From Candidatus Limnocylindrales bacterium (GTDB lineage: Bacteria > Chloroflexota > Limnocylindria > Limnocylindrales > CSP1-4), in contig DATCPH010000015.1 of NCBI GenBank assembly GCA_036570185.1, positions 178-64,177 of the forward strand: 64,000 bases of DNA, read 5' to 3'. Below the pieces are notes generated by a model. It worked only from the letters and a program-made list of their open reading frames with translations, was not told the origin of the DNA and searched no databases. Both the position numbers and the translations under genes were made by a program. This document shows, in pieces, positions 1,908-37,757 of this stretch; position 1 is the first letter of the stretch; each line of letters starts with the position of its first letter.

Positions 1908-2825
1908 GTGCTCGAGTCGGCAGCCTCCCGACCCCGGCTGGCGGCCCTGACCGGCGCGATCTTCATCGCGTTCTCGGGGATCCTCTACCGGTTCTCCGAA
2001 GTGTCCCCGGCGACGGCGACCGTCTTCCGCTGCCTCTACGGGCTGCCGATCCTGGCGATCGTGGCCTATGCCGAGCACCGAAGGTTCGGGCCATTGCCGG
2101 CGCGCACCGTCCGACTCGCAGCGGTCGCGGGCATCTTCTTCGCCGGCGATCTCCTGTTCTGGCATCACGCGATCGGCTTCGTCGGGGTGGGTCTGGCGAC
2201 CGTGCTCGGCAACCTGCAGGTCGTGGTCGTCGCGATTGCCGCCTGGCTACTGTTCGGGGAGCGGCCGCCGCGCGCGACGGTGGCCTCGTTGACGGTCATC
2301 CTGATCGGTGTCGTCCTGATCTCGGGCGTGGTCGGCGTGGGCGCATACGGCGCGAACCCGGTGCTGGGTGTCGTCCTCGGCGTCCTCACCGCGCTGTGCT
2401 ACGCCGGATACCTGCTGGTGATCCGGCGAGGCGGTGGCCGGGACCTGCGGCGCGTCGCCGGGCCGGTGGCCGTGTCGACCGCGTCGACCGCGATCGTGGC
2501 CGCCGTCGTCGGAACGGTCCGGGGCGAGCTCGATCCCATCCCCTCGTGGCCCGCGCACGGCTGGCTGATTCTGCTCGGGATCGCCTCGCAGTCGGTGGGT
2601 TACCTCTTCATCTCGATGTCGCTTCCCCGGCTGCCGGCGGCGCTGACCTCGGTCATCCTTCTGGCCCAACCCGTGGTTGCGGTCGGACTCGCCATGGTCC
2701 TCCTCGCCGAGGCGCCCTCACTGCCACAGCTGGCGGGCGTGGCCCTGGTCGTCGGCGGCATCGCGGTGGCGACGATGCCCTTCGAGCGCGTTCGAGACTC
2801 TCTGTTCGGGGCTTCGGCAGGCTGA
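1908..2825 (+). CDS. EamA/DMT-family transporter (about 10 TM helices)
   Basis: Taken from the 1692..2825 ORF. The first 70 codons overlap aspS and are Arg/Pro-rich junk. The GTG at 1908 precedes continuous hydrophobic helices (LAALTGAIFIAFSGILY..., LLAQPVVAVGLAMVLL...) in a two-repeat layout typical of EamA. The start codon is tentative. Confidence 0.75.
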   Translation: MLESAASRPRLAALTGAIFIAFSGILYRFSEVSPATATVFRCLYGLPILAIVAYAEHRRFGPLPARTVRLAAVAGIFFAGDLLFWHHAIGFVGVGLATVLGNLQVVVVAIAAWLLFGERPPRATVASLTVILIGVVLISGVVGVGAYGANPVLGVVLGVLTALCYAGYLLVIRRGGGRDLRRVAGPVAVSTASTAIVAAVVGTVRGELDPIPSWPAHGWLILLGIASQSVGYLFISMSLPRLPAALTSVILLAQPVVAVGLAMVLLAEAPSLPQLAGVALVVGGIAVATMPFERVRDSLFGASAG

Positions 2826-2874
2826 CACAGGTCCCGCGGCCGGAGCAGGGCGACTGACGGCCAGTGGCCGACGA

Positions 2875-3588
2875 TCAGCCCTCCTCGTCGGGATCCGCGG
2901 CTTGACCGTACGGTGCAAGGGTCGGCCCTTCGAGCGGGGTGTCCTCCGGCAGGTCGGCCCCGGTGGCGCCCCATTCGTGAGTGTGCGGCGCGGCCGGTTC
3001 CGGCGGCCCGACGTACGCGGGCAGGGCGTCGCGCGCGGTAGCGGCGTCGTGAACGACCCCAGGATCGCCGACCTCGACAGTGCGGGTTGCGGCACCTGCG
3101 TCGAGCAAGGCCGCCACGATCTCGTCCGGCCCGCCCCGGGGAGTCACCTCGCGCAGGCGATCGAGCTGGGCGAAGGGCACGAGAACCGGCCAGCCCGGCT
3201 CGCCGTTGAACGAGGGCCTCAGGAGGGTGCCGCCGCCGATGCCGTGGGCTTCGATCAGAGACGTGATGGTTTCGGGACCGACCCACATGTAACGGGCCGG
3301 CCACAGGATCGCGGCATCCGTACCGCGGACCTCGGCAGTGGCAACGTCGATGCCCCGAAGCATTTGGCCGACCGGTCCACCCTCCTGGGGCGCCGGCTCG
3401 GCGAGGGTGACGGCGGCACCCGCGAGCGCCGCGGCAACCGACCCATCGGGATCGGGCGCGACGACGACGATCGGGATCGTTCCACCGGACCAGGCCAGGT
3501 CCACGAGGCGGCGGACGCGAGGCTGGCCGTCGGCATCCGCAAGCGCGGATTCGACGCTGGCGGCGAGGATCACGGCGGCGACGGTCAC
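2875..3588 (-). CDS. Nucleotidyltransferase-fold protein, MobA-like (tentative)
   Basis: This is the 3' 714 nt of the 903-aa minus-strand ORF; the rest of that ORF is antisense to typA. The GTG at 3588 gives VTVAAVILAAS...VDLAWSGGTIPIVVVAPDP...ILWPARYMWVGPETI, resembling MobA/NTP_transf_3 proteins. The usual G-x-S-x-R-M-G loop is not canonical. Divergent from typA. Confidence 0.45.
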   Translation of the reverse strand: MTVAAVILAASVESALADADGQPRVRRLVDLAWSGGTIPIVVVAPDPDGSVAAALAGAAVTLAEPAPQEGGPVGQMLRGIDVATAEVRGTDAAILWPARYMWVGPETITSLIEAHGIGGGTLLRPSFNGEPGWPVLVPFAQLDRLREVTPRGGPDEIVAALLDAGAATRTVEVGDPGVVHDAATARDALPAYVGPPEPAAPHTHEWGATGADLPEDTPLEGPTLAPYGQAADPDEEG

Positions 3589-3669
3589 GCTCGGAATGCT
3601 AGCAGCGGGCTTGTCCGAAGGACGGCCCGAAGGCGGCTCGAGGCGCGATGTGGGACACTGCGCCGGCCC

Positions 3670-5661
3670 ATGAACGACCCCGCCCGCTCCGCCATGCCCA
3701 CCATCGATCAGCCTGCACTGGCTGCCCCTGCCGTTGCCACCAGCGACGCGCCCGCCGATGCGACCGCAGTCCGGCAGGATCTCCGGAACGTGGCGATCGT
3801 GGCCCACGTCGACCATGGCAAGACGACCCTCGTGGACGCAATGCTCCGGCAGACCGGAACCTTCCGCTCGAACCAGGCGGTCGTCGATCGGGTCCTCGAC
3901 TCGGGCGATCTCGAACGCGAGAAGGGGATCACGATCTTGGCAAAGCAGACGACCGTCGACGTCGGCGACGTCCGGCTCAACATCGTCGATACGCCCGGCC
4001 ACGCGGATTTCGGCGGCGAGGTCGAGCGGAGCCTGCTCATGGTCGATTCGGTGCTGCTCCTGGTGGACGCCGCCGAGGGACCCTTGCCGCAGACGCGCTA
4101 TGTGTTGCAGAAGGCGATGGCGCGCCGCCTCCCGGTCGTCGTGGCCCTGAACAAGATCGACCGATCGGACGCCCGCCCTGCCGAGGTGCTCGACGCCGTC
4201 TACGAGCTGTTCATCGACCTCGGCGCCGACGAACACCAGATTGACTTCCCGGTCGTCTACACGAATGCCAAGGCGGGCACCGCGACGCGCGATCTCGCCC
4301 GTCGCGGCATCGACCTCGGTCCGCTGTTCGAGGTGCTGATCGCAGTCACGCCGCCGCCGCGCTACGACCCGGGCCATCCCCTCCAGCTGCTGGTCACGAA
4401 CCTGTCGGCCAACGACTACGTCGGCCGGATGGCGGTCGGGCGCATCTGGAATGGGTCGATTCGGGTCGGCCAGCGAATCGTCGTCGTCCGCGAGGAACCT
4501 GACGACACGGCGGGCGCCATCGAGCCCGGCCGGACCGTGACGCTGCAGGGGACCGTCACCAGCCTCCAGACGGCTCACGGCATCGAGCGGATCGACATCG
4601 GCGAAGCCAGCGCAGGCGACATCGTGTCGGTCGCCGGCCTGCCCGAGGTCACGATCGGCGACACCCTCACCGATCCGGCCGACCCGCGACCGCTGGCCCG
4701 CCTCGACGTTGACGCGCCGACCCTGCGGATGACGTTTGGCGTCAACACTTCGCCGCTGGCCGGCCGCGAGGGCCGCTTCGTGACCTCCCGCCAGATCAAG
4801 GCCCGGCTCGACCGCGAGGTCCTGGGCAACGTCTCGATCGAGGTCCACCTGACCGAGTCCGGGGACACGTTCGAGGTTCGCGGCCGGGGCGAGCTCCAGC
4901 TGGCCGTCCTGATCGAGCAGATGCGCCGCGAGGGCTACGAGCTGATGGTCTCCCGCCCGGAGGTGATCCTGCGCGAGGCCGCCGGCCAAACCCAGGAGCC
5001 GTACGAGCGGATCACGATCGACATCCCGCCCGACTACATCGGCGAGGTCCAGACAGCCATGGCCGGCCGCAAGGGCCGCCTGGAGCAGATGAGCACCGAT
5101 ACGGACGGCCGGGTCCGGATGGAGTTCGTGCTGCCGGTGCGCGGCCTGATCGGGTATCGCGGCCAGCTCCTGACCGACACGCGCGGGACGGCGCTGCTCC
5201 ACCAGATCGGCGAGGGCTATGGCCCGTGGGCCGGCGACGTGACCCATCGAACGAGCGGTGTCCTCGCCGCCGATCGGAGCGGCACCTCGAACGCCTACGG
5301 CCTGTTCAACCTGCAGGAGCGATCCGAGCTCTTCATCGGCGCCGGCGTCGACGTCTACGAGGGCATGATCGTCGGCGAGAACAGCCGCTCGGGCGACCTG
5401 GACGTCAACCCGACGAAGGAAAAGAAGCTCACCAACATCCGGACGCACGCGCACGACGAAGCGCTCCGGCTGACGCCACCTCGACCGATGACGCTCGAGG
5501 CAGCCCTCGAGTTCATCGCCGGCGACGAGCTGGTCGAGGCGACGCCGTTGTCGATTCGGCTTCGCAAGCGAACCCTTCCGGCCCATGATCGTCGCAGGGA
5601 ACGTGGCCGCGAGGAGGATCTGAGCCGATCCGCCGAGCGCGATGGCCCGTCAGCCGACTGA
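3670..5661 (+). CDS. typA: Translational GTPase TypA/BipA
   Basis: ATG at 3670 (alternative ATG at 3694). G-domain motifs [32 protein letters not shown] and NKIDR, followed by EF-G-like domains. The listed 994-aa ORF start at 2677 is a GC-rich artefact overlapping the opposite-strand gene. Confidence 0.93.
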
Positions 5662-9730: not shown

Positions 9731-12553
9731 ATGGGGACCCCCGCCTCGAATCCCGATCCCCGGATAGCGGCGCTGCCCGGGGCCGAGATCCGCCGGAGGT
9801 TCGTCGAATTCTTCGCGCAGCGCGGCCACACCGTCGTGCCAAGCGCCAGCCTCGTGCCGGCCGGCGACGAAACGCTCCTCTTCACCAATTCCGGGATGGT
9901 GCAATTCAAGGACGTCCTGACCGGTGTCGAGACCCGGAGCTATAACCGCGCCGTCGACTACCAGCGCTGCCTGCGCGTGGCCGGCAAGCACAACGACTTC
10001 GAAGAGGTCGGACGCACGCCCCGCCACCACACGCTGTTCGAGATGCTCGGCAACTGGAGCTTCGGGGATTACTTCAAGCGGGAGGCGATCCACTGGGCCT
10101 GGGAGTTCCTGACCGTCGATCTCGGCATCCCCGGTGAGCGCCTGGCTGCGACCACCTATACCGATGACGAGTTCGCCTGGAATGTCTGGCACGACGAGAT
10201 CGGACTGCCGCCGGAGCGGATGGCGAAATGGGGCAACGTCGACGCTGGTGACGACCACAACTTCTGGCGGATGGCGGAGACCGGGCCGTGCGGGCCATGC
10301 AGCGAGATCCATTTCGATCGCGGGGCCCATCTCTCCGAGGGGCCCGAATGCATCCCGGACCACTCCGAGCACTGTCCCCGCTGGCTCGAGATCTGGAACC
10401 TCGTGTTCATGGAGTTCGACCAGCGCGCTGAGGGCCGGGCGCCCTTGCCCTTCACCAGCGTGGACACGGGGATGGGGCTGGAGCGCCTCGCCAGCGTCCT
10501 GCAGCAGGTGCCGACGAACTACGACACGGACCTCTTCGCGCCGGTCCACGCTCGCATGCGGGAGTTGCTGGGCCACGACCCGGGGGCGTTCGAGCAGGAG
10601 CGGTTCAGCTACCAGGTGATCGCCGACCACTCTCGGGCGATCGCGTTCCTGATCGGGGATGGGGTTCTGCCGTCCAAGGAGGGCCGGGGGTATGTGCTGC
10701 GTCGCATCCTGAGGCGGGCGGTGCGCCACGGACGCCTGCTCGGCCGGCGCGAGCCGTTCCTCGCCCAGACCGCATCGGTCGTCATCGACATCATGCGCGA
10801 CGCCTACCCGTTCCTCGAGAAACGGCGCGAGGCGATCCTCGCGACGATCATTCGCGAGGAGGCCCAGTTCACCCGGACCCTCGAGGCCGGCACGCAGCTC
10901 CTCGAGGAGGCTTTGACCCCGCTGACCTCAGCCGAGCGGGTCGTCGGGCGGCGACCCGAGGATCTGCCGCCCGATGCGCCCGTGCTCCCCGGTGCCGTTG
11001 CCTTCCGGCTGCATGACACGTACGGCTTTCCGATCGACCTGACCGTCGAGCTTGCGGCGGAATATGGCGTTGCCGTCGATCGGGCTGGGTTCGAGGAAGC
11101 GCTGGAGGAGCAGCGCCGCCGCAGCCGGAGTGGCACGAAGGCGGCCCTCACCGAGCACGCAGAGATGACCGGGCTCTATCAATCGCTCCTCTCGAACCAC
11201 GGCGAAACCGAGTTCCTCGGGTACGAGACGACCAACGCCGAGGCGGCCGTCGTGGCCATCCTTCGCGACGGAACGGAGTACGAAACGCTCACCGCTATTC
11301 CCGAGATCGAGCTACGGGCAGAGGCTGCCGCAGCCTGCGAAGTGATCCTCGATCGAACGCCGTTCTACGCGGAGGGCGGCGGTCAGGTCGGTGATCGAGG
11401 GGTCTTCCGACCGGTCTCCGGCCGCGCCGAGGGCGAAGTCGTCTTCGAGGTTACCGACCCCCAGCGGCCTGTCGGCCGTCTGACGGTCCACCGGGGGATG
11501 CTCCGGGGAACGCTGTCGGTCGGCGATCGGGTCCTGGCCGAGGTGGACGCCGAGCGCCGGGTCAGCACGATGCGCAATCACACTGGCACGCACCTCCTGC
11601 ACCGCGCACTGCGCAACGTCGTCGGGGAGAATGCCCGCCAGGCCGGCTCGCTGGTTGCGCCCGAGTACCTTCGCTTCGACTTCCCCTTCGATCGCGCCGT
11701 TACCAGGGACGAGATCCGGGCAATCGAAGACGAGGTCCGCCGGATCGTTCGCGAGGATCGTCCGGTGTCGGTCGCCTACATGAGCATGGCCGAGGCGATT
11801 GACGGCGGCGCCGACGCGTTCTTCGACGAGAAGTACGGTGAGACGGTGCGCACGGTCCGGGTCCAGGACTACAGCTTCGAGCTGTGCGGCGGAACCCATT
11901 GCCGTGCCACGGGCCAGATCGGTGGCTTCGTCGTCACCGGCGAACGCAGCATCGGGTCGGGTGTCCGTCGGATCGAGGCCCTCACCGGGGCCGGCGCCGA
12001 TGCCCACCTTCGAGAGCGGTCGGACCTCATCGACGAGGCTACCGAGGTCCTGGGGGCCCAGACGCCAGCCGCCGTCCCGGATCGTGCTCGGAGTCTCCAG
12101 GAGGAGCTCAGGGAGGCACGACGCCGGCTTCGAGCCGGCGGCGGTCCGGGCGGCGTGCCCAGGCCGGGTGAGCTACGCGACCGTGTCGAGACCTTCGACG
12201 GCGTTTCCATGGTTGCGCTCGCGGCGCCGTTCGAGTCGGCCGAGAGCATGAAAGGCTTTGCCAGGGACCTCCGCTCGGCGCTCGCGCCCAACGTCGTTGC
12301 CCTGGCCCTCGATGCGGAGGCGCCCGAGGTGTTCGTGACGGCCGACGAGACGGCGGTGGCAAGGGGCCTGTCGGCCGGCGATCTCGTTCGACTCGCCGTT
12401 GTTTCGATCAACGGCAAGGGCGGAGGTCGGCCTGAGATGGCCCAAGGCCGCGGCACATCGCGTGAGGGGGTGGCTGCGGCACTCGATGCGATCCGGACCG
12501 CCGTTCGTGCGGCATCCGGCGAGGGGCCAACCTCCACCGAGAGCGAGGGCTAG
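9731..12553 (+). CDS. alaS: Alanyl-tRNA synthetase
   Basis: FFAQRGH, FTNSGMVQFK, RCLRVAGKHNDFEEVG, HHTLFEMLGNWSFGDYFK, GPCGPCSEIHFD, editing-domain HTGTHLLH and CGGTHC, C-terminal DHHA1-like region. Confidence 0.96.
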   Translation: MGTPASNPDPRIAALPGAEIRRRFVEFFAQRGHTVVPSASLVPAGDETLLFTNSGMVQFKDVLTGVETRSYNRAVDYQRCLRVAGKHNDFEEVGRTPRHHTLFEMLGNWSFGDYFKREAIHWAWEFLTVDLGIPGERLAATTYTDDEFAWNVWHDEIGLPPERMAKWGNVDAGDDHNFWRMAETGPCGPCSEIHFDRGAHLSEGPECIPDHSEHCPRWLEIWNLVFMEFDQRAEGRAPLPFTSVDTGMGLERLASVLQQVPTNYDTDLFAPVHARMRELLGHDPGAFEQERFSYQVIADHSRAIAFLIGDGVLPSKEGRGYVLRRILRRAVRHGRLLGRREPFLAQTASVVIDIMRDAYPFLEKRREAILATIIREEAQFTRTLEAGTQLLEEALTPLTSAERVVGRRPEDLPPDAPVLPGAVAFRLHDTYGFPIDLTVELAAEYGVAVDRAGFEEALEEQRRRSRSGTKAALTEHAEMTGLYQSLLSNHGETEFLGYETTNAEAAVVAILRDGTEYETLTAIPEIELRAEAAAACEVILDRTPFYAEGGGQVGDRGVFRPVSGRAEGEVVFEVTDPQRPVGRLTVHRGMLRGTLSVGDRVLAEVDAERRVSTMRNHTGTHLLHRALRNVVGENARQAGSLVAPEYLRFDFPFDRAVTRDEIRAIEDEVRRIVREDRPVSVAYMSMAEAIDGGADAFFDEKYGETVRTVRVQDYSFELCGGTHCRATGQIGGFVVTGERSIGSGVRRIEALTGAGADAHLRERSDLIDEATEVLGAQTPAAVPDRARSLQEELREARRRLRAGGGPGGVPRPGELRDRVETFDGVSMVALAAPFESAESMKGFARDLRSALAPNVVALALDAEAPEVFVTADETAVARGLSAGDLVRLAVVSINGKGGGRPEMAQGRGTSREGVAAALDAIRTAVRAASGEGPTSTESEG

Positions 12554-12559
12554 GCCCGG

Positions 12560-13822
12560 ATGGCCTTCTGGCGCCGGATCTGGCAGCGTGAGGAGCCGAG
12601 TTCGCTGGCCGCCTGCACTGCGCTCGACATCGGGACCGAGTTTGCCAAGGCGCTCGTCTTCGAGATCGACGAGGAGAGCCACGGTACCGTCCGGGGCGTC
12701 GGCCGCAAACGCCAGGGGCTGGCACACATGCAGTCGGGGACCGTGGCCGACATCGCCGCGGTCGTCGATAACTGCTCGGTGGCGCTCCAGGAGGCTGAGG
12801 AGATGGCCGGCTTCCGGCCAAGCCAGGTCGTGGTCGGCATCGCCGGTGAGCTCGTGAAGGGCTTCACTACGACCCGCAGCCAGGAACGCGCCAAACCCGA
12901 CGTACCGATCAGCGACGCCGAGCTGCAGAAGCTGATCGACGGGGTCCAGCACGAAGCGATCCGCGAAGCGGAGCGTTCGATCACCTGGGAGACCGGCCTC
13001 CCGCAGCTCGACATCCGTTTGGTGCACGCGGCCGTCACCTCGGCCTCGATCGACGGCTATACCCTGACCAACCCGATCGGCTTCCAGGGTCGACATGTCA
13101 AGATCGGCGTCTTTAACGCCTTCGCCCCGCTCGTGCATCTGGGTGCGCTCGAAAGCGTTGCGTCCCAGCTCGACCTGGAGCTGATCGAGGTCGTGGCCGA
13201 GCCGTACGCGGTCGCGCGAGCGATGGGCTCGGAGCAGGTCCGCCAGGCAGGGGCGCTCTTCGTCGACGTCGGCGGGGGCACCACCGACGTGGCCCTCGTC
13301 CGTCACGGCGGCATCGAGGGCACCCGCATGTTCGCCCTCGGCGGCCGGGCGTTCACGAAGTCGATCGCGGATCGGCTGGAGTTGCCCTTCCCCCGAGCCG
13401 AATCGCTCAAGGTCGACTACGCACGCGGGATCGCCGGCGATGATTCGACCGATGTCGCTCGGATCGTCGCAGCCGACATCGAGGTCTGGGCCGCCGGGGT
13501 GGAGCTGATCCTCGAGGAGATGGCCGGTGGCGACCTGTTGCCGGGACGGATCTACGTCTGTGGCGGGGGCTCGCGCCTACCGGAAATCCCAGCCGCGCTC
13601 GCCTCGGAGCGGTTCTGGAAGCGCCTCCCTTTTTCGCGACCGCCCCAAGTCGCCCTGATGTCGCCCGGTCAGGTGGCCGGCATCGACGACGCGACCCACC
13701 TTCTCGTCGATCAGCAGGACGTCACGCCGCTCGGCCTAGCCTATCAGGCGATCGAGCTCCAGGCGGACCACGATCCGCTCGACGCGGCACTCCGGCGGGT
13801 CCTCCGTGCGATGAAGGTTTAG
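12560..13822 (+). CDS. Actin/Hsp70-fold ATPase, FtsA/PilM-like
   Basis: Phosphate-1 DIGTEFAKALVF, phosphate-2 FVDVGGGTTDVALV and adenosine motif YVCGGGSRLPEI, all in FtsA-like order. The C-terminal 11 aa (ALRRVLRAMKV) form a basic amphipathic helix pattern. Starts 6 nt after the alaS stop. Confidence 0.8.
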   Translation: MAFWRRIWQREEPSSLAACTALDIGTEFAKALVFEIDEESHGTVRGVGRKRQGLAHMQSGTVADIAAVVDNCSVALQEAEEMAGFRPSQVVVGIAGELVKGFTTTRSQERAKPDVPISDAELQKLIDGVQHEAIREAERSITWETGLPQLDIRLVHAAVTSASIDGYTLTNPIGFQGRHVKIGVFNAFAPLVHLGALESVASQLDLELIEVVAEPYAVARAMGSEQVRQAGALFVDVGGGTTDVALVRHGGIEGTRMFALGGRAFTKSIADRLELPFPRAESLKVDYARGIAGDDSTDVARIVAADIEVWAAGVELILEEMAGGDLLPGRIYVCGGGSRLPEIPAALASERFWKRLPFSRPPQVALMSPGQVAGIDDATHLLVDQQDVTPLGLAYQAIELQADHDPLDAALRRVLRAMKV

Positions 13823-13835
13823 GGCGGCCCCAACG

Positions 13836-15629
13836 ATGTCGACCACGATCTACCTCGACGTCGACGACGAGATCACGTCGGCGGCGATGCGGATCCGTGA
13901 TGCCGCGGCCGGTCCGGTCGCGCTGGTTCTGCCGCTTGGCTCGCGAATTGCCACGTCGCGGATCAATTTCCGGCTGCTCGCGCGCGAGGCCGAGGCCGCG
14001 GGCCACCGCCTGGCGATCGTGGCCGGCGATGCCGCGACGCGGGGGCTCGCGACCTCGGCCGGCCTCGCGACGTTGGCCTCGGTTGGGGAGTTCGAAGCCT
14101 CCGTCGATTCGGGTGACGCGGCACCGGGAAGCGATCGACCAGTTGACCGCATCCGACCAGGGCCGGATCACGCCCCGACGATGGTCGTTCCAACCGAGGG
14201 GCTGGCCGCCGGAGGGCTGGCCGCAGGCGACCTTGGCGGAGGCGAGCTCGCTGCAGAGTCGCCCGCCTCCGACGTCCCCAGCCGGTGGATGGCTCGGCCG
14301 ATCGGGACGGACGTCGATCGCCCATTTACCCGGCCAGCTGTCGTCGACGCCTCGAGAGACCGCATCCCGGTCGTCGGCTCACGGCGGTCCCTCTTCGACC
14401 GCACTGGACTCATCATCTTCGCAGCCGTACTCGCCGTGCTGCTCGTTGGCGGGATCGTGGCTGGGTTCTTCCTGCTGCCGTCAGCCGTCATCACCCTTAC
14501 GCCGCGCACGGAGGTGGTCGGGCCGCTGGCCCTCGAGGTGGTCGCCGACCCGTCGGCGACCACGACCAACGCGACGACCCTCGTCGTCCCCGCGCGGACG
14601 CTCACATTTCCCCTCGAGGCGACCGACACCTTTTCGGCGACGGGCAAGCGCATCGTTGAAGCCAAGGCCAAGGGCGCCATCACGTTCCAGAACTGCGACA
14701 CGGGACGGTCGATCGCAATTCCCAAGGGCTCGATCGTGTCGACGGACAGCGGGATTACCTTCTCGACGTCATCCGCGGTCACGGTTCCGCGGGCGTCCGT
14801 GCTTCCGGCCTTCGCCTGCAAGGCCGCGAGCGTGAGCGTGGTCGCGGCCAAGGCCGGCCCGAGCGGGAACGTCATCGCCGGTTCGATCACGCACATCCCC
14901 GCGGGGTACGATCCCGTCGTCCTGAGCGTGACAAATCCCCAGCCCACGACCGGCGGCACCCACCAGGAGTTTCCGAAAATCCTTCAATCCGACGTCGACG
15001 CCGCCCTGAAGTCACTGCGAAAGAAGATCTCGGACGCACTGGCGGCCGACGTGAAGGCGGCGCCCGCGGCCAACCCCGGCCTGACGGTCTTTGCAGAGAC
15101 CGTGACGATGACCGACCCGGCGCCCACCATCGACCCGGCGACCCTGGTCGGCAAGGAGGTCGCAAAGTTCGAGCTTGGCCTGACGGCGATCGGCGGTGTC
15201 GTGGCGGTCGACCCGGGCCCCGTCAAGGACGTCGCGACCGCGGCGACGCGCAGCCACGTCACCGCGGGGTACGTGCTGATCGACGGCTCCATGAAGATCG
15301 ACGTTGGGCAGCCGACGACGCAAGGCCAGATCGTGACATTCCCCGTCAGCGCCCACGCAATGCAGGTGCGCACGGTGGACCAGAACGCACTGCTCTCGAA
15401 GATCAAGGGCAAGACCCTGCCGGCCGCCCGCCTGCTGCTATCGCCGTACGGCAACGTGCGCCTGGACGTCTGGCCCGACTGGGTGACGACGGTCCCGACC
15501 ATGGACTCCCGCCTCACGTTCCGGATCGCCGCGGTCCCGGCGTCGGCGGCGCCGGGTGCTTCCGGTTCCTCCGCGCCGTTGCCCGCGGTATCGCCAGCAG
15601 CCTCGCCAGCGGCATCGACCGCCCCGTGA
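13836..15629 (+). CDS. Bitopic membrane protein of unknown function (597 aa)
   Basis: N-terminal soluble module of about 90 aa (IYLDVDDEITSAAMRIRD...PVALVLPLGSRIATSRINFRLLAREAEAAGHRLAIVAGD). Then a Gly/Ala/Pro-rich linker, a single TM (LIIFAAVLAVLLVGGIVAGFFLL, aa ~191-214), a beta-rich ectodomain of about 350 aa, and an Ala/Pro/Ser tail. There is a 13-nt gap after the actin-like gene, and the stop overlaps the ruvX start. Confidence 0.75.
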   Translation: MSTTIYLDVDDEITSAAMRIRDAAAGPVALVLPLGSRIATSRINFRLLAREAEAAGHRLAIVAGDAATRGLATSAGLATLASVGEFEASVDSGDAAPGSDRPVDRIRPGPDHAPTMVVPTEGLAAGGLAAGDLGGGELAAESPASDVPSRWMARPIGTDVDRPFTRPAVVDASRDRIPVVGSRRSLFDRTGLIIFAAVLAVLLVGGIVAGFFLLPSAVITLTPRTEVVGPLALEVVADPSATTTNATTLVVPARTLTFPLEATDTFSATGKRIVEAKAKGAITFQNCDTGRSIAIPKGSIVSTDSGITFSTSSAVTVPRASVLPAFACKAASVSVVAAKAGPSGNVIAGSITHIPAGYDPVVLSVTNPQPTTGGTHQEFPKILQSDVDAALKSLRKKISDALAADVKAAPAANPGLTVFAETVTMTDPAPTIDPATLVGKEVAKFELGLTAIGGVVAVDPGPVKDVATAATRSHVTAGYVLIDGSMKIDVGQPTTQGQIVTFPVSAHAMQVRTVDQNALLSKIKGKTLPAARLLLSPYGNVRLDVWPDWVTTVPTMDSRLTFRIAAVPASAAPGASGSSAPLPAVSPAASPAASTAP

Positions 15630-16150
15630 GGCGGCTCCTCGGGGTCGACCTCGGAGAACGGAGGATCGGTCTGGCGGTTGCCGATGATGACGGTGGCCGG
15701 GCCTGGCCCCTATCGACGATCCGGCGCGCCCCGGATCCGGCGACCGACGCGGCGGCATTGGCGCCCATCGTGGCGGCCAACGGGGTTGCCGAGCTGGTCG
15801 TCGGTCTTCCGCTCGACATCTCCGGCGATGAAGGGCCCCAGGCGTCGTCGACGCGCGCCTGGGCGTTGGACGTCGCCCAACGCCTCGCCTTGCCGCTCCG
15901 GCTGCGTGACGAACGATTGACCAGCCATCTTGCGGAAGATCGGCTTGGCCCGATGAAGCGGGGTCGCGCTGGAGGCCCGCCGACCCGGACGCAGCGGAAC
16001 GCCTACCGGGCCCGCGTCGATCGCGAAGCGGCGGCGATCATCCTGCAGGACGAGCTTGACGCTCGCGACCGTGGTCGCGCCGACGCCGAGACCGCTACCG
16101 GCACCCGCGCCCGGGCACGACAGTCCGCCGGCGGAGAACCGACCCCGTGA
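15626..16150 (+). CDS. ruvX: Putative pre-16S rRNA nuclease / Holliday junction resolvase-like RuvX (YqgF)
   Basis: LLGVDLGERRIGLAVAD, ELVVGLPLDISGDEG, DERLTS and AAAIILQDELD are YqgF family signatures. There is a 4-nt overlap on both sides. Confidence 0.9.
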   Translation: MRRLLGVDLGERRIGLAVADDDGGRAWPLSTIRRAPDPATDAAALAPIVAANGVAELVVGLPLDISGDEGPQASSTRAWALDVAQRLALPLRLRDERLTSHLAEDRLGPMKRGRAGGPPTRTQRNAYRARVDREAAAIILQDELDARDRGRADAETATGTRARARQSAGGEPTP

Positions 16151-17571
16151 CGCTCCGTGGCGGCGGCTCACCGCGCGACCCGCGCTTCCAGGCGCGCCGC
16201 GTGTCGGAGGACGGGCAGTCCGACCAGCACGTGAGTGGTCCGCCGGGCGGTGGCCGGAGCGGAGTATCGGACCTGGGCCGGGTTGAGCGGGGCCCGGCCG
16301 CGAATCGCGCTCGTACCAGGTACGGATATTCCGGGCAGCAGGGGATCGGGGTCGGGGGCGCGGTCCGCTTCCTGGCCTTCGCGGTGATCCTGGCGGTCCT
16401 GGTGCTGGGCGCCCTGTTGACTGTCCTGAGACCGCTTGCCAGAGCGGCCGTCATCGGCTGGGCCTACGACAATCCCACTGCCCTGCGGGTGCCGTTCGTC
16501 GCCGATCTCGTCCGCGAGGATCTGGGGACGCTCCTCACCCAGCCGGCCGGCACGGACGCGTCGGCGGTCGAGTTCGACGTCAATTCGGGCGATACCGTGC
16601 AGACGCTCGCGCCGCGCCTTGGGGCCGCCCACCTGATCCGTGACCAGCGCGCCTTCGTCTTCGAGGCGATCGAGCAGGGCCTGCCGTCGAAGCTGCTCGC
16701 CGGGGCGTATCTGCTGCAGCGGACGATGACGCCCAGCCAGGTCGTGAGTGGACTCGTCGAGGGCCGGATGATCGTGCGGACGACGACGGTGACGTTCCGC
16801 GAGGGTCTGCGCCTGGAGCAGATGACGGCCAAGCTCCAGACAATTAAAACGGCGGTCGATCCGAGGGCGTTCTACGACCTCGTCGAGCATCCCCCGGCGT
16901 CCTTCCTGGCCGACTTCGCCTGGCTCGACCTCCCCGAAGGTCGATCACTCGAGGGCTACCTTTATCCGGCGACCTACACCCTCGTCGTCCAGGCGCCGTC
17001 GAGCCTGGAGAAGCCGACCTCGGCCGAAGATCTCGTCCGCCAGATGCTGAAGAAGTTCCACGACGTGGCGGGCGACCTCATGACGGTTCCAAAGGCGCGC
17101 GGCATGACCTTCTACCAGGTCCTGACGCTGGCCTCGCTGGTCGAGCGCGAGGTGCAGGTGGACTCCGAGCGGCCCTTGATCGCGGGCGTCTACCAGAACC
17201 GGCTCAACGGCTTCCATGGCGTGCCCAGGCTGCTTGAGGCCGACCCGACGATCTTCTACGTGAACGACACGCTTCAGCTGGAGTCGATGCCGTTCGACCA
17301 GTGGCAGACGTACGTGTTCTGGGCGAAGCTCAAGGACCAACTCCCGGCGACACTGCCGCCGGCTCTTGCCGGATACAACACCTACACGCACAGCGGCCTG
17401 ATGCCCGGGCCGATCTGCTCGCCGACGGTCGCCTCGATCATGGCAGCCCTCACCCCGGACACCGCGACCGGCTACCTGTGGTTCATCGCCAAGGGTGATG
17501 GGAGCGGCACGTCCGCCTTCGCCAAGACCATCGCGGAGTACCAGGCCAACCTCAAGAAATACGCCAAGTGA
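16147..17571 (+). CDS. mltG: Endolytic murein transglycosylase MltG (YceG-like) with long N-terminal extension
   Basis: A TM anchor (FLAFAVILAVLVLGALLTVL) followed by the YceG domain: TFREGLRLEQM, LEGYLYPATY, LASLVEREVQ, IAGVYQNRL, LEADPT, YNTYTHSGLMPGPICSP. Confidence 0.9.
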   Translation: MTLRGGGSPRDPRFQARRVSEDGQSDQHVSGPPGGGRSGVSDLGRVERGPAANRARTRYGYSGQQGIGVGGAVRFLAFAVILAVLVLGALLTVLRPLARAAVIGWAYDNPTALRVPFVADLVREDLGTLLTQPAGTDASAVEFDVNSGDTVQTLAPRLGAAHLIRDQRAFVFEAIEQGLPSKLLAGAYLLQRTMTPSQVVSGLVEGRMIVRTTTVTFREGLRLEQMTAKLQTIKTAVDPRAFYDLVEHPPASFLADFAWLDLPEGRSLEGYLYPATYTLVVQAPSSLEKPTSAEDLVRQMLKKFHDVAGDLMTVPKARGMTFYQVLTLASLVEREVQVDSERPLIAGVYQNRLNGFHGVPRLLEADPTIFYVNDTLQLESMPFDQWQTYVFWAKLKDQLPATLPPALAGYNTYTHSGLMPGPICSPTVASIMAALTPDTATGYLWFIAKGDGSGTSAFAKTIAEYQANLKKYAK

Positions 17572-34800: not shown

Positions 34801-35210
34801 CGAACGATGAGAAGCCAGGCCTCGTCGAAGCGTGGATGGCCGAGCGCGCCGCACGAGCCGGCGATGCAGCGAGCGCGCGGGAGATCGTCGAGCGCCCCCT
34901 GATGACCGGGAGGACTCCGTCAATGGAGGAACCACCGTACGAGTTTCCGGTCCTCGTTGAGGCTCTTGCGGCGGCAGGCGACTGGCCGGCCCTCGAGGCG
35001 GCGTTGCCGAAGATGCGAGACGCGACAGGGCGTGTTGCCTGGCTGGCACCGGCCATCGAACGAGCCGAGGGCCTACGGCTGATGGCGCGCGGCGATCGGA
35101 CAGAGGCAGACGCTGCCCTGGCGCGAGCGCTCGACTCGTATCGTCGCCTGGGGATGGCTAACGAGGAAGCTGCGACGCGCGAGCTGCTTGGCGGCATGGA
35201 ACCGACTTGA
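31887..35210 (+). CDS. Class III adenylate/guanylate cyclase fused to a STAND-type P-loop NTPase and a helical-repeat (TPR-like) C-terminus (1107 aa)
   Basis: The cyclase domain shows metal Asp residues (ILFADMVGST, KYIGDAIMAAFG) and transition-state residues (GDAVNVAARLE). Walker A is LVLVFGPAGIGKSRL and Walker B-like is VVLLVEDLHWAD. About 550 aa of alpha-helical repeats follow. No C-terminal LuxR HTH is seen. Confidence 0.85.
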   Translation: MVEPRAPERVDERKLVTILFADMVGSTELGERLDPERLQVLLAGYFRAMTAVIESWGGTVEKYIGDAIMAAFGVPAVHEDDPQRAIGAALEMLERLGSLNREFRERHDVELQIRIGVNTGDVIAPVGEATSQMIVAGDAVNVAARLEGAADPGTILVGDRTYTAAADAFGFEGPRSLELKGKARPVAAWRVVGRSIRGERSDRPQAPMIGRDREIRGVTEALDDAIESGRPRLVLVFGPAGIGKSRLTREFLETAGAARADLVVLRGRCLSAGQGITYWALGEIVRHAFGISLDDPPDLARERLERGVRTLLEPMEGPERDVRDTIFALAISSGIRIPDNPLEQMRPIAVATELGRAWPRFAAAQAHRGPVVLLVEDLHWADDQLLAILEAVFGRTNGPFLLLVTARPEFAETHPAFAAGREGFTSLSLKPLLERDEIQLMASLLRTEAVPKELQEVLLDRAEGNPFFLEQLVGGLIDSGVVTREGDGWRLTGKIRAVTLPDTVQGVLSARIDRLPPPEKRVMQAAAIVGRTFWAPAVALSVEEELVVPALAGLESKGLVLARPASSVGGETEYAFKHALIHDVAYGSIPLARRARSHALVGGWLEKLAGEGDESLLELVAFHYRAALRGEGADLAWADDPVGAGDLRERAFEVLMEAGAVARRRNAIARAVELHEAGLELASDESERARAHEELGDDHGWGYHGDPSVEAWDAALQLQQALGDDEAIARICLKAARTCAVYWGGFADRPSGATVDRYVDLGLAHVRDQRVRAWLLMLRGRASEAWAATSLPDPVEPAVRIAAAEEAVDLAAGIEDIDLQVMALRSLGGLVLLGGDTARSLELAEQELAIIDRVAVSRDRLLSLSQVLGRIMDIGGDLERALDLARKALPDARELSAHERMHATYFVMAPLYRLGRLEEIRPFAAEHLRAFDDETVDMNCPYTRSGPVVAALAFDLLGDSEAARNASERIAPNDEKPGLVEAWMAERAARAGDAASAREIVERPLMTGRTPSMEEPPYEFPVLVEALAAAGDWPALEAALPKMRDATGRVAWLAPAIERAEGLRLMARGDRTEADAALARALDSYRRLGMANEEAATRELLGGMEPT

Positions 35211-35259
35211 GTCACGGAGCCATCAGACCGACGGCCAGCCCGCCGCTATCCTGAGCCGC

Positions 35260-37756: not shown

Positions 37757-37757
37757 G

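What the first reader, a model, noticed from the sequence alone, without database searches (positions are those of the whole stretch)
12560..15629. Actin-fold ATPase plus large bitopic membrane partner inserted between alaS and ruvX-mltG
As I recall it, alaS is followed directly by ruvX and mltG in M. tuberculosis (Rv2555c-Rv2553c), and with only small ORFs between them in B. subtilis. Here two extra co-directional genes sit inside that block: 6 nt after the alaS stop, a 13-nt internal gap, and a 4-nt overlap into ruvX. This suggests co-transcription with the peptidoglycan transglycosylase gene. Gene 1 has the three actin/Hsp70 nucleotide motifs in FtsA/PilM order. It ends in a basic amphipathic helix (ALRRVLRAMKV) resembling the FtsA membrane-targeting sequence. 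Gene 2 encodes a cytoplasmic module of about 90 aa, a Gly/Ala-rich linker, one TM helix, a beta-rich ectodomain of about 350 aa, and an Ala/Pro/Ser tail. It therefore looks unlike FtsQ, FtsN or PilN, which have short cytoplasmic N-termini. The ectodomain stretch KGAITFQN...IPKGSIV...VSVVAAKAGPSGNVIAGSI reminds me of baseplate-J/gp47-like beta-sandwich annotations, but I cannot verify that. My hypothesis is a membrane-tethered actin-like cytoskeletal element coupled to an envelope-spanning partner, acting in wall synthesis or division. This is the best candidate in the window for an uncharacterised system.
Basis: partly seen in the sequence, partly recalled or inferred. Interest (0 to 1): 0.7.

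Follow-up and report, generated by a model that had tools for sequence, protein, structure and literature searches.

The report
Conserved FtsA-like protein with membrane partner
Two adjacent genes encode an uncharacterised FtsA-like (actin-family) protein and a membrane-spanning partner with a phage-baseplate-like outer domain, and the pair sits in the same gene block in a class of Chloroflexota and in the ultrasmall Saccharibacteria, where it exists alongside the ordinary cell-division FtsA.

Summary
The order is alaS, then 6 nt, gene 1 (420 aa), 13 nt, gene 2 (597 aa), a 4-nt overlap, ruvX, a 4-nt overlap, then mltG.

Gene 1 belongs to the FtsA/PilM branch of actin-fold ATPases. It scores below the FtsA equivalog cut-off, shows no Pfam SHS2 hit, and ends in the most amphipathic helix of the protein.

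Gene 2 has a conserved 90-aa cytoplasmic alpha/beta domain, a disordered linker, one TM helix and an ectodomain. The ectodomain barrel is baseplate-J/gp6-like by Pfam, PHROG and Foldseek.

The pair is not a local insertion. It is present in every Limnocylindria locus that has room. A relaxed-motif metagenome scan also found the same g1-g2-ruvX-mltG block in Saccharibacteria (CPR) and in a third, unidentified lineage.

In Southlakia epibionticum, published tables list the orthologues (SEML1_0656/0655) beside a separate canonical ftsA-ftsZ and a true pilM-pilN. The gene-2 orthologue is called essential there, but no function is described.

Gene 1 is the most conserved gene of the block. My best reading is a third, uncharacterised FtsA-family membrane scaffold with a transmembrane coupler acting on the envelope. 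The function is inferred, not shown.

The parts
9731..12553 (+). alaS (alanyl-tRNA synthetase, 940 aa), upstream neighbour of the block
   Evidence: Pfam tRNA-synt_2c E 2e-185, plus tRNA_SAD and DHHA1. alaS lies upstream of gene 1 in Limnocylindria loci and in 17 of 18 Saccharibacteria loci with room.
12560..13822 (+). gene 1: FtsA-family actin-fold ATPase, 420 aa (g1-type, annotated 'FtsA domain-containing')
   Evidence: Pfam FtsA PF14450 E 9e-16. TIGR01174 scores 113 bits, below the 175.85 cut-off. The closest solved structures are FtsA, then PilM. Homologues are 80-85% identical, and 59 of 78 extracted orthologues are exactly 420 aa.
12560..12595 (+). gene 1 N-terminal basic/aromatic segment (MAFWRRIWQREE)
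   Evidence: R5, R6, W8 and R10 are at least 90% conserved in Limnocylindria. A basic N-terminal segment is also present in the other two lineages. Its role is unknown.
12617..12658 (+). gene 1 phosphate-1 motif region (aa 20-33, TALDIGTEFAKALV)
   Evidence: L22, D23, G25, T26, K30, A31 and L32 are invariant across three lineages.
13259..13300 (+). gene 1 phosphate-2 motif region (aa 234-247, FVDVGGGTTDVALV)
   Evidence: D236, G238, G239, G240, T241, T242 and D243 are invariant across lineages.
13553..13585 (+). gene 1 adenosine motif region (aa 332-342, YVCGGGSRLPE)
   Evidence: C334, G335, G336, G337, S338 and L340 are invariant across lineages.
13775..13819 (+). gene 1 C-terminal basic amphipathic helix (aa 406-420, PLDAALRRVLRAMKV)
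   Evidence: This region holds the highest 11-residue hydrophobic moment in the protein (0.81) and has net charge +3. An equivalent helix is kept in all three lineages.
13836..15629 (+). gene 2: bitopic membrane protein, 597 aa (annotated 'baseplate J/gp47 family protein')
   Evidence: Gene 2 follows gene 1 directly in every related locus with room.
13836..14111 (+). gene 2 cytoplasmic N-terminal alpha/beta domain (aa 1-92)
   Evidence: This is the most conserved part of gene 2 (mean majority fraction 0.71; 29 invariant columns). AlphaFold2 pLDDT is at least 89 with a (beta-alpha)4 layout. It has no Pfam or PDB sequence match. The S. epibionticum orthologue is assigned a SpoIIAA-like fold by DPAM (PMC10633639 Table S2).
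14112..14390 (+). gene 2 disordered cytoplasmic linker (aa 93-185; rich in Ala, Gly, Pro, Arg and Asp), basic next to the membrane
   Evidence: pLDDT is below 50. Length and sequence vary.
14400..14477 (+). gene 2 single transmembrane helix (aa 189-214), N-terminus in, C-terminus out
   Evidence: Kyte-Doolittle maximum is 2.86. A helix spans aa 189-212 in the model. Arg-rich residues lie on the N-terminal side.
14478..15530 (+). gene 2 ectodomain (aa 215-565)
   Evidence: pLDDT is mostly above 85. The Cys287/Cys328 pair is either present in both positions (21 sequences) or absent from both (58 sequences), which fits an extracytoplasmic disulfide.
14649..14969 (+). gene 2 baseplate-J/gp6-like beta-barrel (aa 272-378)
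   Evidence: Pfam PF04865 and the GlxA barrel and PHROG 6. Foldseek matches include 9gb2_G (29% identity, rmsd 2.9 A over 109 columns), Mu 9ki1 and GlxA 5lxz, plus BFVD baseplate J proteins.
15531..15626 (+). gene 2 Ala/Pro/Ser-rich C-terminal tail (aa 566-597)
   Evidence: Composition is A 38%, P 22%, S 22%. It is variable or absent in homologues.
15626..16150 (+). ruvX (YqgF-type nuclease, 174 aa), overlaps gene 2 by 4 nt
   Evidence: Pfam RuvX E 1e-28. ruvX lies directly downstream of gene 2 in 39 of 41 distant loci and in every Limnocylindria locus that extends far enough downstream.
16147..17571 (+). mltG (YceG-type endolytic transglycosylase, 474 aa)
   Evidence: Pfam YceG E 2e-61. mltG lies downstream in 31 of 31 distant loci with room.

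Best explanation
Genes 1 and 2 form a conserved two-gene module. It is shared by the class Ca. Limnocylindria (Chloroflexota), by Saccharibacteria (CPR/Patescibacteria) and by a third unidentified lineage, and it always sits directly upstream of ruvX(-mltG).

Shown: gene 1 belongs to a distinct branch of the FtsA/PilM actin-fold ATPases. It has intact nucleotide motifs and a conserved basic amphipathic C-terminal helix. In Saccharibacteria it is encoded in addition to the canonical ftsA-ftsZ and pilM-pilN.

Shown: gene 2 is a bitopic protein. It has a highly conserved cytoplasmic alpha/beta domain, a disordered linker, one TM helix and an extracytoplasmic domain built around a phage baseplate-wedge (J/gp6)-type barrel.

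Inferred: gene 1 sits, and probably polymerises, on the inner face of the membrane through its C-terminal helix. The cytoplasmic domain of gene 2 docks on it, much as RodZ docks on MreB or FtsN/PilN on FtsA/PilM. The gene 2 ectodomain transmits that organisation to the wall.

Inferred: the module is a morphogenetic, peptidoglycan-related scaffold that works beside the FtsA-FtsZ divisome rather than as part of it.
For: Family placement. Pfam FtsA gives E 9e-16. TIGR01174 scores 113 bits, against PilM 24.6 and MreB 29. PDB sequence and fold searches rank FtsA first, then PilM, EutJ, ParM and MreB.

Distinct branch. g1-type proteins of all three lineages score 57-118 bits on TIGR01174 (cut-off 175.85) and lack PF02491. 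They share about 105 invariant columns.

Paralogy. In S. epibionticum, SEML1_0656 (427 aa, K03590) and SEML1_0655 (baseplate J/gp47, 556 aa) lie between alaS and ruvX-mltG. SEML1_0174 FtsA (which has PF02491) sits next to SEML1_0175 FtsZ, and SEML1_0104-0105 are PilM-PilN (PMC10633639 Tables S1/S2).

Co-occurrence and order. g1 precedes g2 in all Limnocylindria loci with room and in 42 of 42 distant loci. ruvX follows in 39 of 41 and mltG in 31 of 31.

Constraint. g1 has median identity 79.8% within the class, compared with AlaRS 70.3% and g2 42%. Across phyla g1 is 43.7%, AlaRS 33.8% and g2 27.4%. The g2 N-terminal domain is the most conserved part of g2.

Topology. There is one TM helix, Arg-rich on the N-terminal side, and a covarying Cys pair in the barrel.

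Fitness. In published Tn-seq the g2 orthologue is called NE/ES/ES and the g1 orthologue NE/NE/GD. S. epibionticum has no annotated MreB.
Against: No interaction between the two proteins was tested or predicted.

The gene 1 model is poor (pLDDT 54.8), so the 1C/SHS2 subdomain rests on sequence alignments and on published annotation of the orthologue.

The Tn-seq phenotypes differ: g2 is called essential and g1 only growth-deficient. That is not what a strictly obligate pair predicts. The g2 call has the same pattern as the downstream ruvX, so polarity is not excluded.

mltG is non-essential in the same screen, so any essential role of g2 is not solely through MltG.

Operon membership with ruvX/mltG may be historical rather than functional.

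Whether the window's own genome has a canonical ftsA-ftsZ was not determined.

The divergence of gene 1 from gammaproteobacterial FtsA (58 bits) lies within the range seen between bona fide FtsAs: S. aureus scores 95 bits and T. maritima 30 bits.
Confidence: 0.45

Rival explanations
1. Gene 1 is simply this lineage's divisome FtsA that has moved out of the dcw cluster, and gene 2 is a lineage-specific divisome partner (FtsN/FtsQ-like).
For: FtsA is the best hit in every library. IMG names the gene 'cell division protein FtsA'. It has FtsA-like length and a C-terminal amphipathic helix. Its divergence from Vibrio FtsA (58 bits) falls between those of S. aureus (95 bits) and T. maritima FtsA (30 bits). 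No second ftsA could be looked for in the window's genome.
Against: It scores below the equivalog cut-off and has no PF02491 hit. No ftsZ or dcw genes occur in the 64-kb window or in the 80 related loci. In S. epibionticum the orthologue, in the same gene order, coexists with a canonical, essential ftsA-ftsZ pair. Gene 1 is more conserved than AlaRS, which I recall to be unusual for FtsA (recollection, not tested here).
Confidence: 0.15
2. The pair is a PilM/PilN-type inner-membrane platform of a type IV pilus, competence or secretion machine.
For: PilM structures come just after FtsA in the fold search. Prokka names the S. epibionticum orthologue 'pilus assembly protein PilM'. The actin-like-plus-bitopic layout resembles PilM-PilN.
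Against: PilM models score far below threshold: TIGR01175 gives 24.6 against 133, and PF11104 gives 16.4 against 27. No pilin, PilB/C/T or PilO genes lie nearby. The partner has a 90-aa globular cytoplasmic domain instead of a short N-terminal peptide, and the juxtamembrane IPVVG motif is not conserved. S. epibionticum has a genuine PilM-PilN elsewhere.
Confidence: 0.07
3. Gene 2 is a domesticated phage baseplate protein that acts on its own as a surface structure (adhesion, a phage-receptor decoy or host contact). Gene 1 is only a neighbour or an assembly ATPase.
For: The barrel has a baseplate-J/gp6 signature. DPAM finds gp6 domain III-like and G3P pilus-binding-like modules in the orthologue. 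g2 and g1 show different fitness calls in Tn-seq.
Against: There are no other tail or baseplate genes and the context is housekeeping in three lineages. There is no BLAST-level similarity to any phage or plasmid record. There is no defence-system hit for g2, and only one weak hit for g1. The cytoplasmic domain, not the ectodomain, is the most conserved part. The module is present in Limnocylindria, which I understand to be free-living (my own knowledge, not tested here), as well as in episymbionts.
Confidence: 0.08
4. The module works with RuvX (rRNA maturation or DNA processing) rather than with the envelope, for example as a membrane-tethered ASKHA ATPase or chaperone.
For: g2 and ruvX overlap or abut in nearly all loci. 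They have the same Tn-seq call pattern, NE/ES/ES.
Against: As I recall, the ruvX-mltG and alaS-ruvX linkage also occurs in bacteria that lack g1-g2 (recalled, not tested here). A 350-aa ectodomain has no obvious role in cytoplasmic RNA or DNA processing.
Confidence: 0.1

Closest known systems
FtsA with its bitopic partners (FtsN, FtsQ) in the divisome
   Same: Gene 1 has its best sequence and fold matches to FtsA. It has the same length class, the same order of nucleotide motifs, an insertion at the 1C position with the FtsA-type 'NPxGxxG' return strand, and a C-terminal amphipathic helix. Like FtsA, it is paired with a bitopic protein whose N-terminus is cytoplasmic.
   Different: It scores below the FtsA equivalog cut-off and has no Pfam SHS2_FTSA hit. 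It is never next to ftsZ. In Saccharibacteria it coexists with a canonical FtsA. Its partner has a 90-aa folded cytoplasmic domain and a baseplate-type ectodomain, not the short peptide plus SPOR domain of FtsN or the POTRA domain of FtsQ.
MreB-RodZ
   Same: The architecture is analogous. A very highly conserved actin-like protein is paired with a bitopic protein that has a small folded cytoplasmic domain, a disordered linker, one TM helix and an extracytoplasmic beta-rich domain. The genes are also close to mltG, which I recall is linked to the elongation machinery in model bacteria (not tested here).
   Different: Gene 1 is not MreB: it scores 29 bits against cut-offs of 293 or more, and its insertion sits at the FtsA-type 1C position rather than 1B. 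Gene 2 has no HTH or DUF4115 domain. The resemblance is in how it may work, not in family membership.
PilM-PilN (type IV pilus alignment complex)
   Same: Both involve the same branch of actin-fold proteins, and both pair the actin-fold gene with an immediately following bitopic gene.
   Different: The PilM models are not met, there are no pilus genes nearby, and the partner lacks the short PilM-binding N-terminal peptide. A true PilM-PilN exists elsewhere in S. epibionticum.
Phage baseplate wedge proteins (P2 gpJ, Mu gp47, T4 gp6) and the GlxA beta-barrel domain of Streptomyces
   Same: The barrel at aa 272-378 of gene 2 matches these by Pfam, PHROG and structure (rmsd about 2-4 A, 18-29% identity). 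GlxA shows that the barrel also occurs in a membrane-anchored extracytoplasmic protein involved in glycan deposition.
   Different: Only the barrel superposes well; whole-chain TM-scores are 0.15-0.25. Gene 2 has a TM helix and a cytoplasmic domain. It is not encoded among tail genes and has no BLAST-level similarity to any phage record.
SEML1_0656 / SEML1_0655 of Southlakia epibionticum (Patescibacteria-enriched core families; Wang et al. 2023, PMC10633639)
   Same: These are judged orthologues. The gene order is the same (cysteine desulfurase, mnmA, alaS, g1, g2, ruvX, mltG) and so are the sizes and domain content. Saccharibacterial g1-type proteins are 40-47% identical to gene 1.
   Different: They belong to a different phylum, with AlaRS only about 34% identical. 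They appear only in supplementary tables, named 'PilM' and 'baseplate J/gp47 family protein', with Tn-seq calls. Neither locus tag, nor 'FtsA' or 'baseplate', appears in that paper's main text, so no function has been assigned.

Membership tests
FtsA (divisome actin homologue) | ASKHA/actin fold with phosphate-1, phosphate-2 and adenosine motifs | tested here: met
   Motifs are present and invariant across three lineages. Pfam FtsA PF14450 gives E 9e-16. FtsA structures are the top hits.
FtsA (divisome actin homologue) | SHS2 (1C) subdomain inserted in domain 1 in place of 1B | tested here: inconclusive
   The TIGR01174 and Vibrio FtsA alignments run through aa 97-180, including the 'NPIGFQG' strand. 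Pfam PF02491 is not detected at E 0.1 or below. The AlphaFold2 model is of low confidence there. For the S. epibionticum orthologue, published Foldseek hits are 'SHS2 domain-containing protein' at TM 0.98.
FtsA (divisome actin homologue) | Score above the curated equivalog cut-off (TIGR01174, 175.85 bits) | tested here: not met
   The window protein scores 113.4 bits. Relatives from the two other lineages score 111.5, 117.7 and 57.4 bits.
FtsA (divisome actin homologue) | Encoded next to ftsZ at the end of the dcw cluster | tested here: not met
   No ftsZ or dcw genes occur in the 64-kb window or in 80 + 54 related loci. The gene always lies between alaS (or cysS/MTase) and gene 2.
FtsA (divisome actin homologue) | Is the genome's orthologue of FtsA (no separate canonical ftsA) | not testable with these tools
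   The rest of the window's genome could not be read. In S. epibionticum, with the same block, a separate canonical FtsA (SEML1_0174, with PF02491) sits next to FtsZ (SEML1_0175).
FtsA (divisome actin homologue) | C-terminal amphipathic membrane-targeting helix | tested here: met
   This is met at sequence level only. The region has the highest hydrophobic moment in the protein and net charge +3, and it is kept in all lineages. Membrane binding itself was not tested.
FtsA (divisome actin homologue) | Binds the FtsZ C-terminal peptide through subdomain 2B | not testable with these tools
   This needs biochemistry or a multimer prediction.
PilM (type IV pilus) | PilM profile above threshold (TIGR01175 at 133 bits; PF11104 at 27 bits) | tested here: not met
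   Scores are 24.6 and 16.4 bits.
PilM (type IV pilus) | Followed by pilN/pilO and linked to pilus genes, with the partner carrying a short conserved N-terminal PilM-binding peptide | tested here: not met
   The neighbours are housekeeping genes. The partner has a 90-aa folded domain, and its juxtamembrane motif is not conserved.
MreB-RodZ | MreB profile above threshold and a 1B-type insertion; RodZ with a cytoplasmic HTH and a periplasmic DUF4115 | tested here: not met
   MreB models score 28.6-29.1 bits against cut-offs of 293-366. PF06723 scores 35 bits against a gathering score of 27, but covers only 76 of 327 positions. There is no HTH or DUF4115 hit in gene 2.
Baseplate J / gp6 / gp47 wedge protein | Baseplate_J profile above gathering score | tested here: met
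   PF04865 scores 29.8 bits against 21.1, but covers only profile positions 22-113 of 255. PHROG 6 gives E 2.5e-14.
Baseplate J / gp6 / gp47 wedge protein | Whole wedge architecture (barrel, helical core, C-terminal domain) | tested here: inconclusive
   The barrel superposes at rmsd 2-4 A. Long alignments of 340-430 columns have E 1e-8 to 1e-10 but TM-scores of only 0.15-0.25. DPAM assigns gp6 C-terminal domain III to the orthologue.
Baseplate J / gp6 / gp47 wedge protein | Soluble virion protein encoded among tail and baseplate genes | tested here: not met
   Gene 2 has a TM helix and a cytoplasmic domain. It sits in a housekeeping context in three lineages. tblastn finds no match to 50,697 phage records.

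The most novel reading that the evidence does not exclude
g1-type proteins are a third, so far unrecognised bacterial actin-like cytoskeleton, distinct from FtsA, MreB and PilM. It is ancestral to the Chloroflexota-CPR part of the tree. Together with a transmembrane partner built from a phage baseplate-wedge module, it forms an envelope-spanning machine that organises wall growth. In ultrasmall bacteria that lack MreB it could be the main non-divisome morphogenetic system.
Probability: 0.3. Interest if true: 0.85.

Novelty: new variant of a known kind. Interest (0 to 1): 0.65.

Why it matters
The pair belongs to protein families flagged as core and Patescibacteria-enriched. CPR bacteria are a very large, poorly understood part of bacterial diversity. 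This work shows the same block in a free-living Chloroflexota class.

Gene 1 is more conserved than the aminoacyl-tRNA synthetase next to it, and the partner is called essential in the only CPR Tn-seq screen that I found. No function has been proposed. The genes are variously annotated as FtsA, PilM, rod-shape protein or phage baseplate protein. That can mislead genome-based inferences about division, pili and prophages.

Because S. epibionticum is genetically tractable, the hypothesis of a third FtsA-family scaffold with a transmembrane coupler is directly testable.

The shared seven-gene order is also a candidate synapomorphy for the proposed Chloroflexota-CPR relationship.

Tried and rejected
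- Looking for dcw, ftsZ or mreB in the window and in all fetched loci found nothing apart from gene 1 itself.
- I could not establish whether Limnocylindria have a canonical ftsA. The Chloroflexota survey paper and its supplements give no per-class FtsA table. A second literature route also gave nothing.
- I tested whether the N-terminal domain of gene 2 is a receiver (REC) domain, because of its acidic 'VDDE' strand end and Asp65. hhalign against CheY gave probability 0.2 and a PDB profile search found nothing, so this was rejected. Pfam on the isolated N-terminal domain and on the C-terminal ectodomain gave no hit.
- I tested whether a PilN-like juxtamembrane peptide (IPVVGxRR) is the docking motif. 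It is present in only a subset of orthologues, so this was rejected.
- I first argued that gene 1 is too divergent to be an FtsA. Calibration rejected this: T. maritima FtsA is more distant from Vibrio FtsA than gene 1 is.
- The structure prediction of gene 1 used a shallow alignment (80-85% identical rows) and gave a poor model (pLDDT 54.8). Its fold search was used only for ranking.
- tblastn of gene 2 against plasmids and phages gave no match. PADLOC found no hit for gene 2 and only one weak hit for gene 1, PDC-M61B at E 0.0011 and 15.7 bits.
- I could not confirm that TM7x_02800, called 'ftsA' in the TM7x papers, is the g1-type gene. Its neighbours are not listed.

Full report
**1. The observation**

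The window carries, on the + strand, the following genes:
- alaS (9731-12553)
- a 420-aa ORF, gene 1 (12560-13822)
- a 597-aa ORF, gene 2 (13836-15629)
- ruvX (15626-16150)
- mltG (16147-17571)
- an M24 peptidase
- efp

There are 6 nt between alaS and gene 1, and 13 nt between gene 1 and gene 2. Gene 2 overlaps ruvX through GTGA, and ruvX overlaps mltG in the same way. Both new ORFs have coding-type codon position bias, with GC3 of 0.85-0.86. No promoter-like or terminator-like site lies on the + strand within the block. Pfam confirms the neighbours as AlaRS, RuvX and YceG/MltG.

The rest of the 64-kb window is housekeeping. It contains aspS, typA, iscS-like, mnmA, xseA, recN, xerC-like, scpAB, cmk, ispH, der, gpsA and pur genes. 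It has no dcw, ftsZ or mreB gene.

Hit names, the 69% GC content and taxonomy place the window in Candidatus Limnocylindria, Chloroflexota.

**2. Gene 1**

- Family scores. Pfam gives FtsA (PF14450, E 9e-16) and a partial MreB match. NCBIfam TIGR01174 (ftsA) scores 113 bits, below its 175.85 cut-off. PilM scores 24.6 bits and MreB about 29 bits. The Pfam model of the FtsA SHS2 insertion (PF02491) is not detected.
- Structural relatives. The closest solved structures by sequence are gammaproteobacterial FtsA (E 4e-15), aligned over aa 19-292 and therefore through the 1C position, followed by EutJ, MreB and PilM. The AlphaFold2 model was poor (pLDDT 54.8) because all available homologues are 80-85% identical. 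Its Foldseek ranking of FtsA, PilM, EutJ, ParM and MreB is used only as a ranking.
- Motifs and termini. The phosphate-1, phosphate-2 and adenosine motifs are intact. The last 15 residues form the most amphipathic stretch of the protein (moment 0.81, net charge +3). A basic/aromatic N-terminal segment is also conserved.
- Calibration. A 256-aa fragment of Vibrio FtsA scores 95 bits against S. aureus FtsA and 30 bits against T. maritima FtsA. Gene 1 scores 58 bits. Divergence alone therefore does not exclude gene 1 from being an FtsA.

**3. Gene 2**

The AlphaFold2 model (pLDDT 79) and an alignment of 25 homologues give the following layout:
- a confident (beta-alpha)4 domain at aa 3-91
- a disordered, variable linker at aa 93-185
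- one TM helix at aa 189-212, with Arg-rich residues on its N-terminal side
- a well-predicted ectodomain at aa 216-565
- an Ala/Pro/Ser tail

The barrel at aa 272-378 is baseplate-J/gp6-like by three methods:
- Pfam PF04865 scores above the gathering threshold.
- PHROG 6 gives E 2.5e-14.
- Foldseek against the PDB matches phiCD508 (29% identity, rmsd 2.9 A), Mu and cyanophage A-1(L) baseplates, and the Streptomyces GlxA barrel. Foldseek against BFVD gives the same picture.

Only the barrel superposes well. Whole-chain TM-scores stay at 0.15-0.25.

Two cysteines in the barrel are either both present (21 orthologues) or both absent (58 orthologues). This fits a disulfide and an extracytoplasmic location.

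The cytoplasmic domain is the most conserved part of the protein. It has no Pfam or PDB sequence relative, and a receiver-domain idea was rejected.

**4. Distribution within the class**

A scan of one genome per species found at least 500 loci. In the 80 loci kept, the order alaS-g1-g2-ruvX-mltG-pepP-efp is present wherever the contig has room, and also on a 1.5-Mb contig. The g1-g2 spacing is mostly between -4 and +22 nt.

Median identity to the window proteins is as follows:

| Protein | Median identity |
|---|---|
| gene 1 | 79.8% |
| EF-P | 83.2% |
| MnmA | 75.0% |
| AlaRS | 70.3% |
| MltG | 49.8% |
| gene 2 | 42.0% |

Gene 1 is thus among the most constrained genes of the region, and 59 of 78 extracted orthologues are exactly 420 aa. 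A profile search of 1.84 billion representative proteins found 2,052 clusters at E 1e-30 or below and 10,632 at E 1e-3 or below. A member only 32% identical to gene 2 still sits after alaS and a 420-aa FtsA-like gene.

**5. Beyond the class**

I scanned metagenome contigs for a relaxed N-terminal-domain motif that deliberately excludes the Limnocylindria form. Of the 67 matches, 54 have the exact in-frame spacing and encode gene-2-like proteins of 514-593 aa.

Forty-nine come from organisms with 35-56% GC. A homologue search names these Saccharimonadales/Saccharibacteria. Five come from an unidentified lineage with 61-64% GC.

In these loci a g1-type gene lies directly upstream of gene 2 in 42 of 42 cases with room. 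ruvX lies directly downstream in 39 of 41, and mltG lies downstream in 31 of 31. In Saccharibacteria, alaS lies upstream in 17 of 18. A very common Saccharibacterium shows the order cysteine desulfurase-like, mnmA, alaS, g1 (427 aa), g2 (571 aa), ruvX, mltG, LysM/CHAP. In the third lineage the upstream genes are cysS and a SpoU-type methyltransferase, but g1-g2-ruvX and mltG are kept.

Cross-phylum identities to the window are g1 43.7%, MnmA 36.8%, AlaRS 33.8%, RuvX 31.7%, MltG 29.1% and g2 27.4%. The whole block is therefore deeply diverged and is not a recent transfer. Gene 1 is again the most conserved gene.

g1-type proteins of all three lineages score 57-118 bits on TIGR01174, lack PF02491, share about 105 invariant columns and keep a basic amphipathic C-terminal helix.

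**6. What the literature holds**

No paper found by full-text search discusses the pair. The supplementary tables of Wang et al. 2023 (PMC10633639) for Southlakia epibionticum list the following genes:
- SEML1_0660 cysteine desulfurase
- SEML1_0658 mnmA
- SEML1_0657 alaS
- SEML1_0655 'baseplate J/gp47 family protein' (556 aa; DPAM assigns a SpoIIAA-like N-terminal domain, a beta-barrel, a G3P pilus-binding-like module and gp6 C-terminal domain III)
- SEML1_0654 ruvX
- SEML1_0653 mltG

Both proteins are flagged there as core and Patescibacteria-enriched families.

The same genome has a separate canonical FtsA (SEML1_0174, with PF02491) next to FtsZ (SEML1_0175), both essential. It also has a true PilM-PilN (SEML1_0104-0105), no annotated MreB and a single SEDS protein.

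The Tn-seq calls at T0/T1/T2 are NE/NE/GD for the g1 orthologue, NE/ES/ES for the g2 orthologue, NE/ES/ES for ruvX and NE/NE/NE for mltG. Neither locus tag, and neither 'FtsA' nor 'baseplate', occurs in the paper's main text.

Two TM7x transcriptome papers call TM7x_02800 'ftsA' although ftsZ is TM7x_00785. Whether TM7x_02800 is the g1-type gene could not be verified.

**7. Interpretation**

Shown:
- Gene 1 and gene 2 are real genes.
- They form an ancient, strictly co-occurring pair upstream of ruvX(-mltG).
- Gene 1 is a distinct FtsA-family branch. In the one experimentally studied relative it is a paralogue of the divisome FtsA and of PilM.
- Gene 2 is N-in/C-out, with a conserved cytoplasmic domain and a baseplate-type barrel outside.

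Inferred:
- Gene 1 associates with the membrane through its C-terminal helix and may polymerise.
- The gene 2 N-terminal domain docks on gene 1.
- The ectodomain couples this to the wall.

In layout this resembles MreB-RodZ, although by family gene 1 is closest to FtsA. The link to peptidoglycan rests on the conserved proximity of mltG, the extracytoplasmic domain and the absence of MreB in S. epibionticum. It is not demonstrated.

Points against a simple obligate complex are the different Tn-seq calls of the two orthologues, possible polarity on ruvX, and the dispensability of mltG.

**8. Rivals**

- A relocated sole FtsA remains possible for Limnocylindria until a complete genome is checked, but the Saccharibacteria evidence makes it the less likely reading.
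- A PilM/PilN platform is rejected on profile scores, gene context and partner anatomy.
- A domesticated phage protein acting alone does not explain why the cytoplasmic domain is the most conserved part.
- A RuvX-linked role cannot be excluded, but it does not explain the ectodomain.

**9. Novelty and verdict**

This is an uncharacterised variant of a known design, an actin-like ATPase with a bitopic partner. Its partner architecture has no described counterpart, and it is conserved across Limnocylindria, Saccharibacteria and at least one more lineage.

The idea of a local insertion is replaced by an ancient conserved block. The proposed function remains a hypothesis that can now be tested in a tractable organism.

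Noticed in passing
window 35188-36765 (+): A 525-aa ORF combines a cytidylate kinase domain with an acyltransferase (PlsC-type) domain. It appears to be a cmk-plsC fusion.
   Followed up: no
window 52139-54427 (+): A 762-aa ORF combines Formyl_trans_N with MGS and AICARFT/IMPCHase. It appears to be a purN-purH fusion inside the pur gene run.
   Followed up: no
window 31887-35210 (+): An 1107-aa protein has an adenylate/guanylate cyclase domain followed by an AAA_16 ATPase domain, a STAND-type signalling protein.
   Followed up: no
window 2677-5661 (+) and 37533-39548 (+): The TypA/BipA ORF has a 367-aa N-terminal extension if its TTG start is used. The orthologue on L001 is called at 645 aa. 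The Der/EngA ORF overlaps the ispH ORF by more than 200 nt. Both starts are probably internal.
   Followed up: partly
P0095 (ENA protein, 735 aa): One gene call reads from the last ~110 residues of a g1 orthologue straight into gene 2 (..RAMKVYMADG..). This is a lost stop or a frame fusion in one MAG. It independently shows adjacency.
   Followed up: no
L016, L017, L034, L050 (genome contigs) and P0422: Contigs labelled Verrucomicrobiia, Patescibacteria, Eisenbacteria or Dormibacterota carry a Limnocylindria-type block; where alaS lies on the contig (L016, L017, L050), its AlaRS is 71-76% identical to the window's. Conversely, a protein labelled Limnocylindria (P0422) is 71% identical to Saccharibacterial g1. 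These are probably mis-binned or mislabelled MAG contigs.
   Followed up: partly
L086, L095, L103, L111, L142 (metagenome contigs, 61-64% GC): A third, unidentified lineage carries g1-g2-ruvX, with cysS and a SpoU/TrmH-type methyltransferase upstream. mltG lies about 2 kb further downstream, followed by a galU-like gene.
   Followed up: partly
L149 8077-9963 and SEML1_0657: AlaRS in Saccharibacteria is short (628-635 aa) and lacks the C-terminal DHHA1 domain that is present in the 940-aa window protein.
   Followed up: no
literature: TM7x_02800 versus TM7x_00785: Two TM7x transcriptome papers report 'ftsA' (TM7x_02800) far from ftsZ (TM7x_00785). This may be the g1-type paralogue rather than the divisome FtsA, which would affect how its expression change is read.
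   Followed up: partly
window, whole 64 kb: Nearly every gene with coding-type GC3 lies on the + strand. Of the four minus-strand ORFs that passed the filter, three overlap plus-strand genes and are probably spurious.
   Followed up: no
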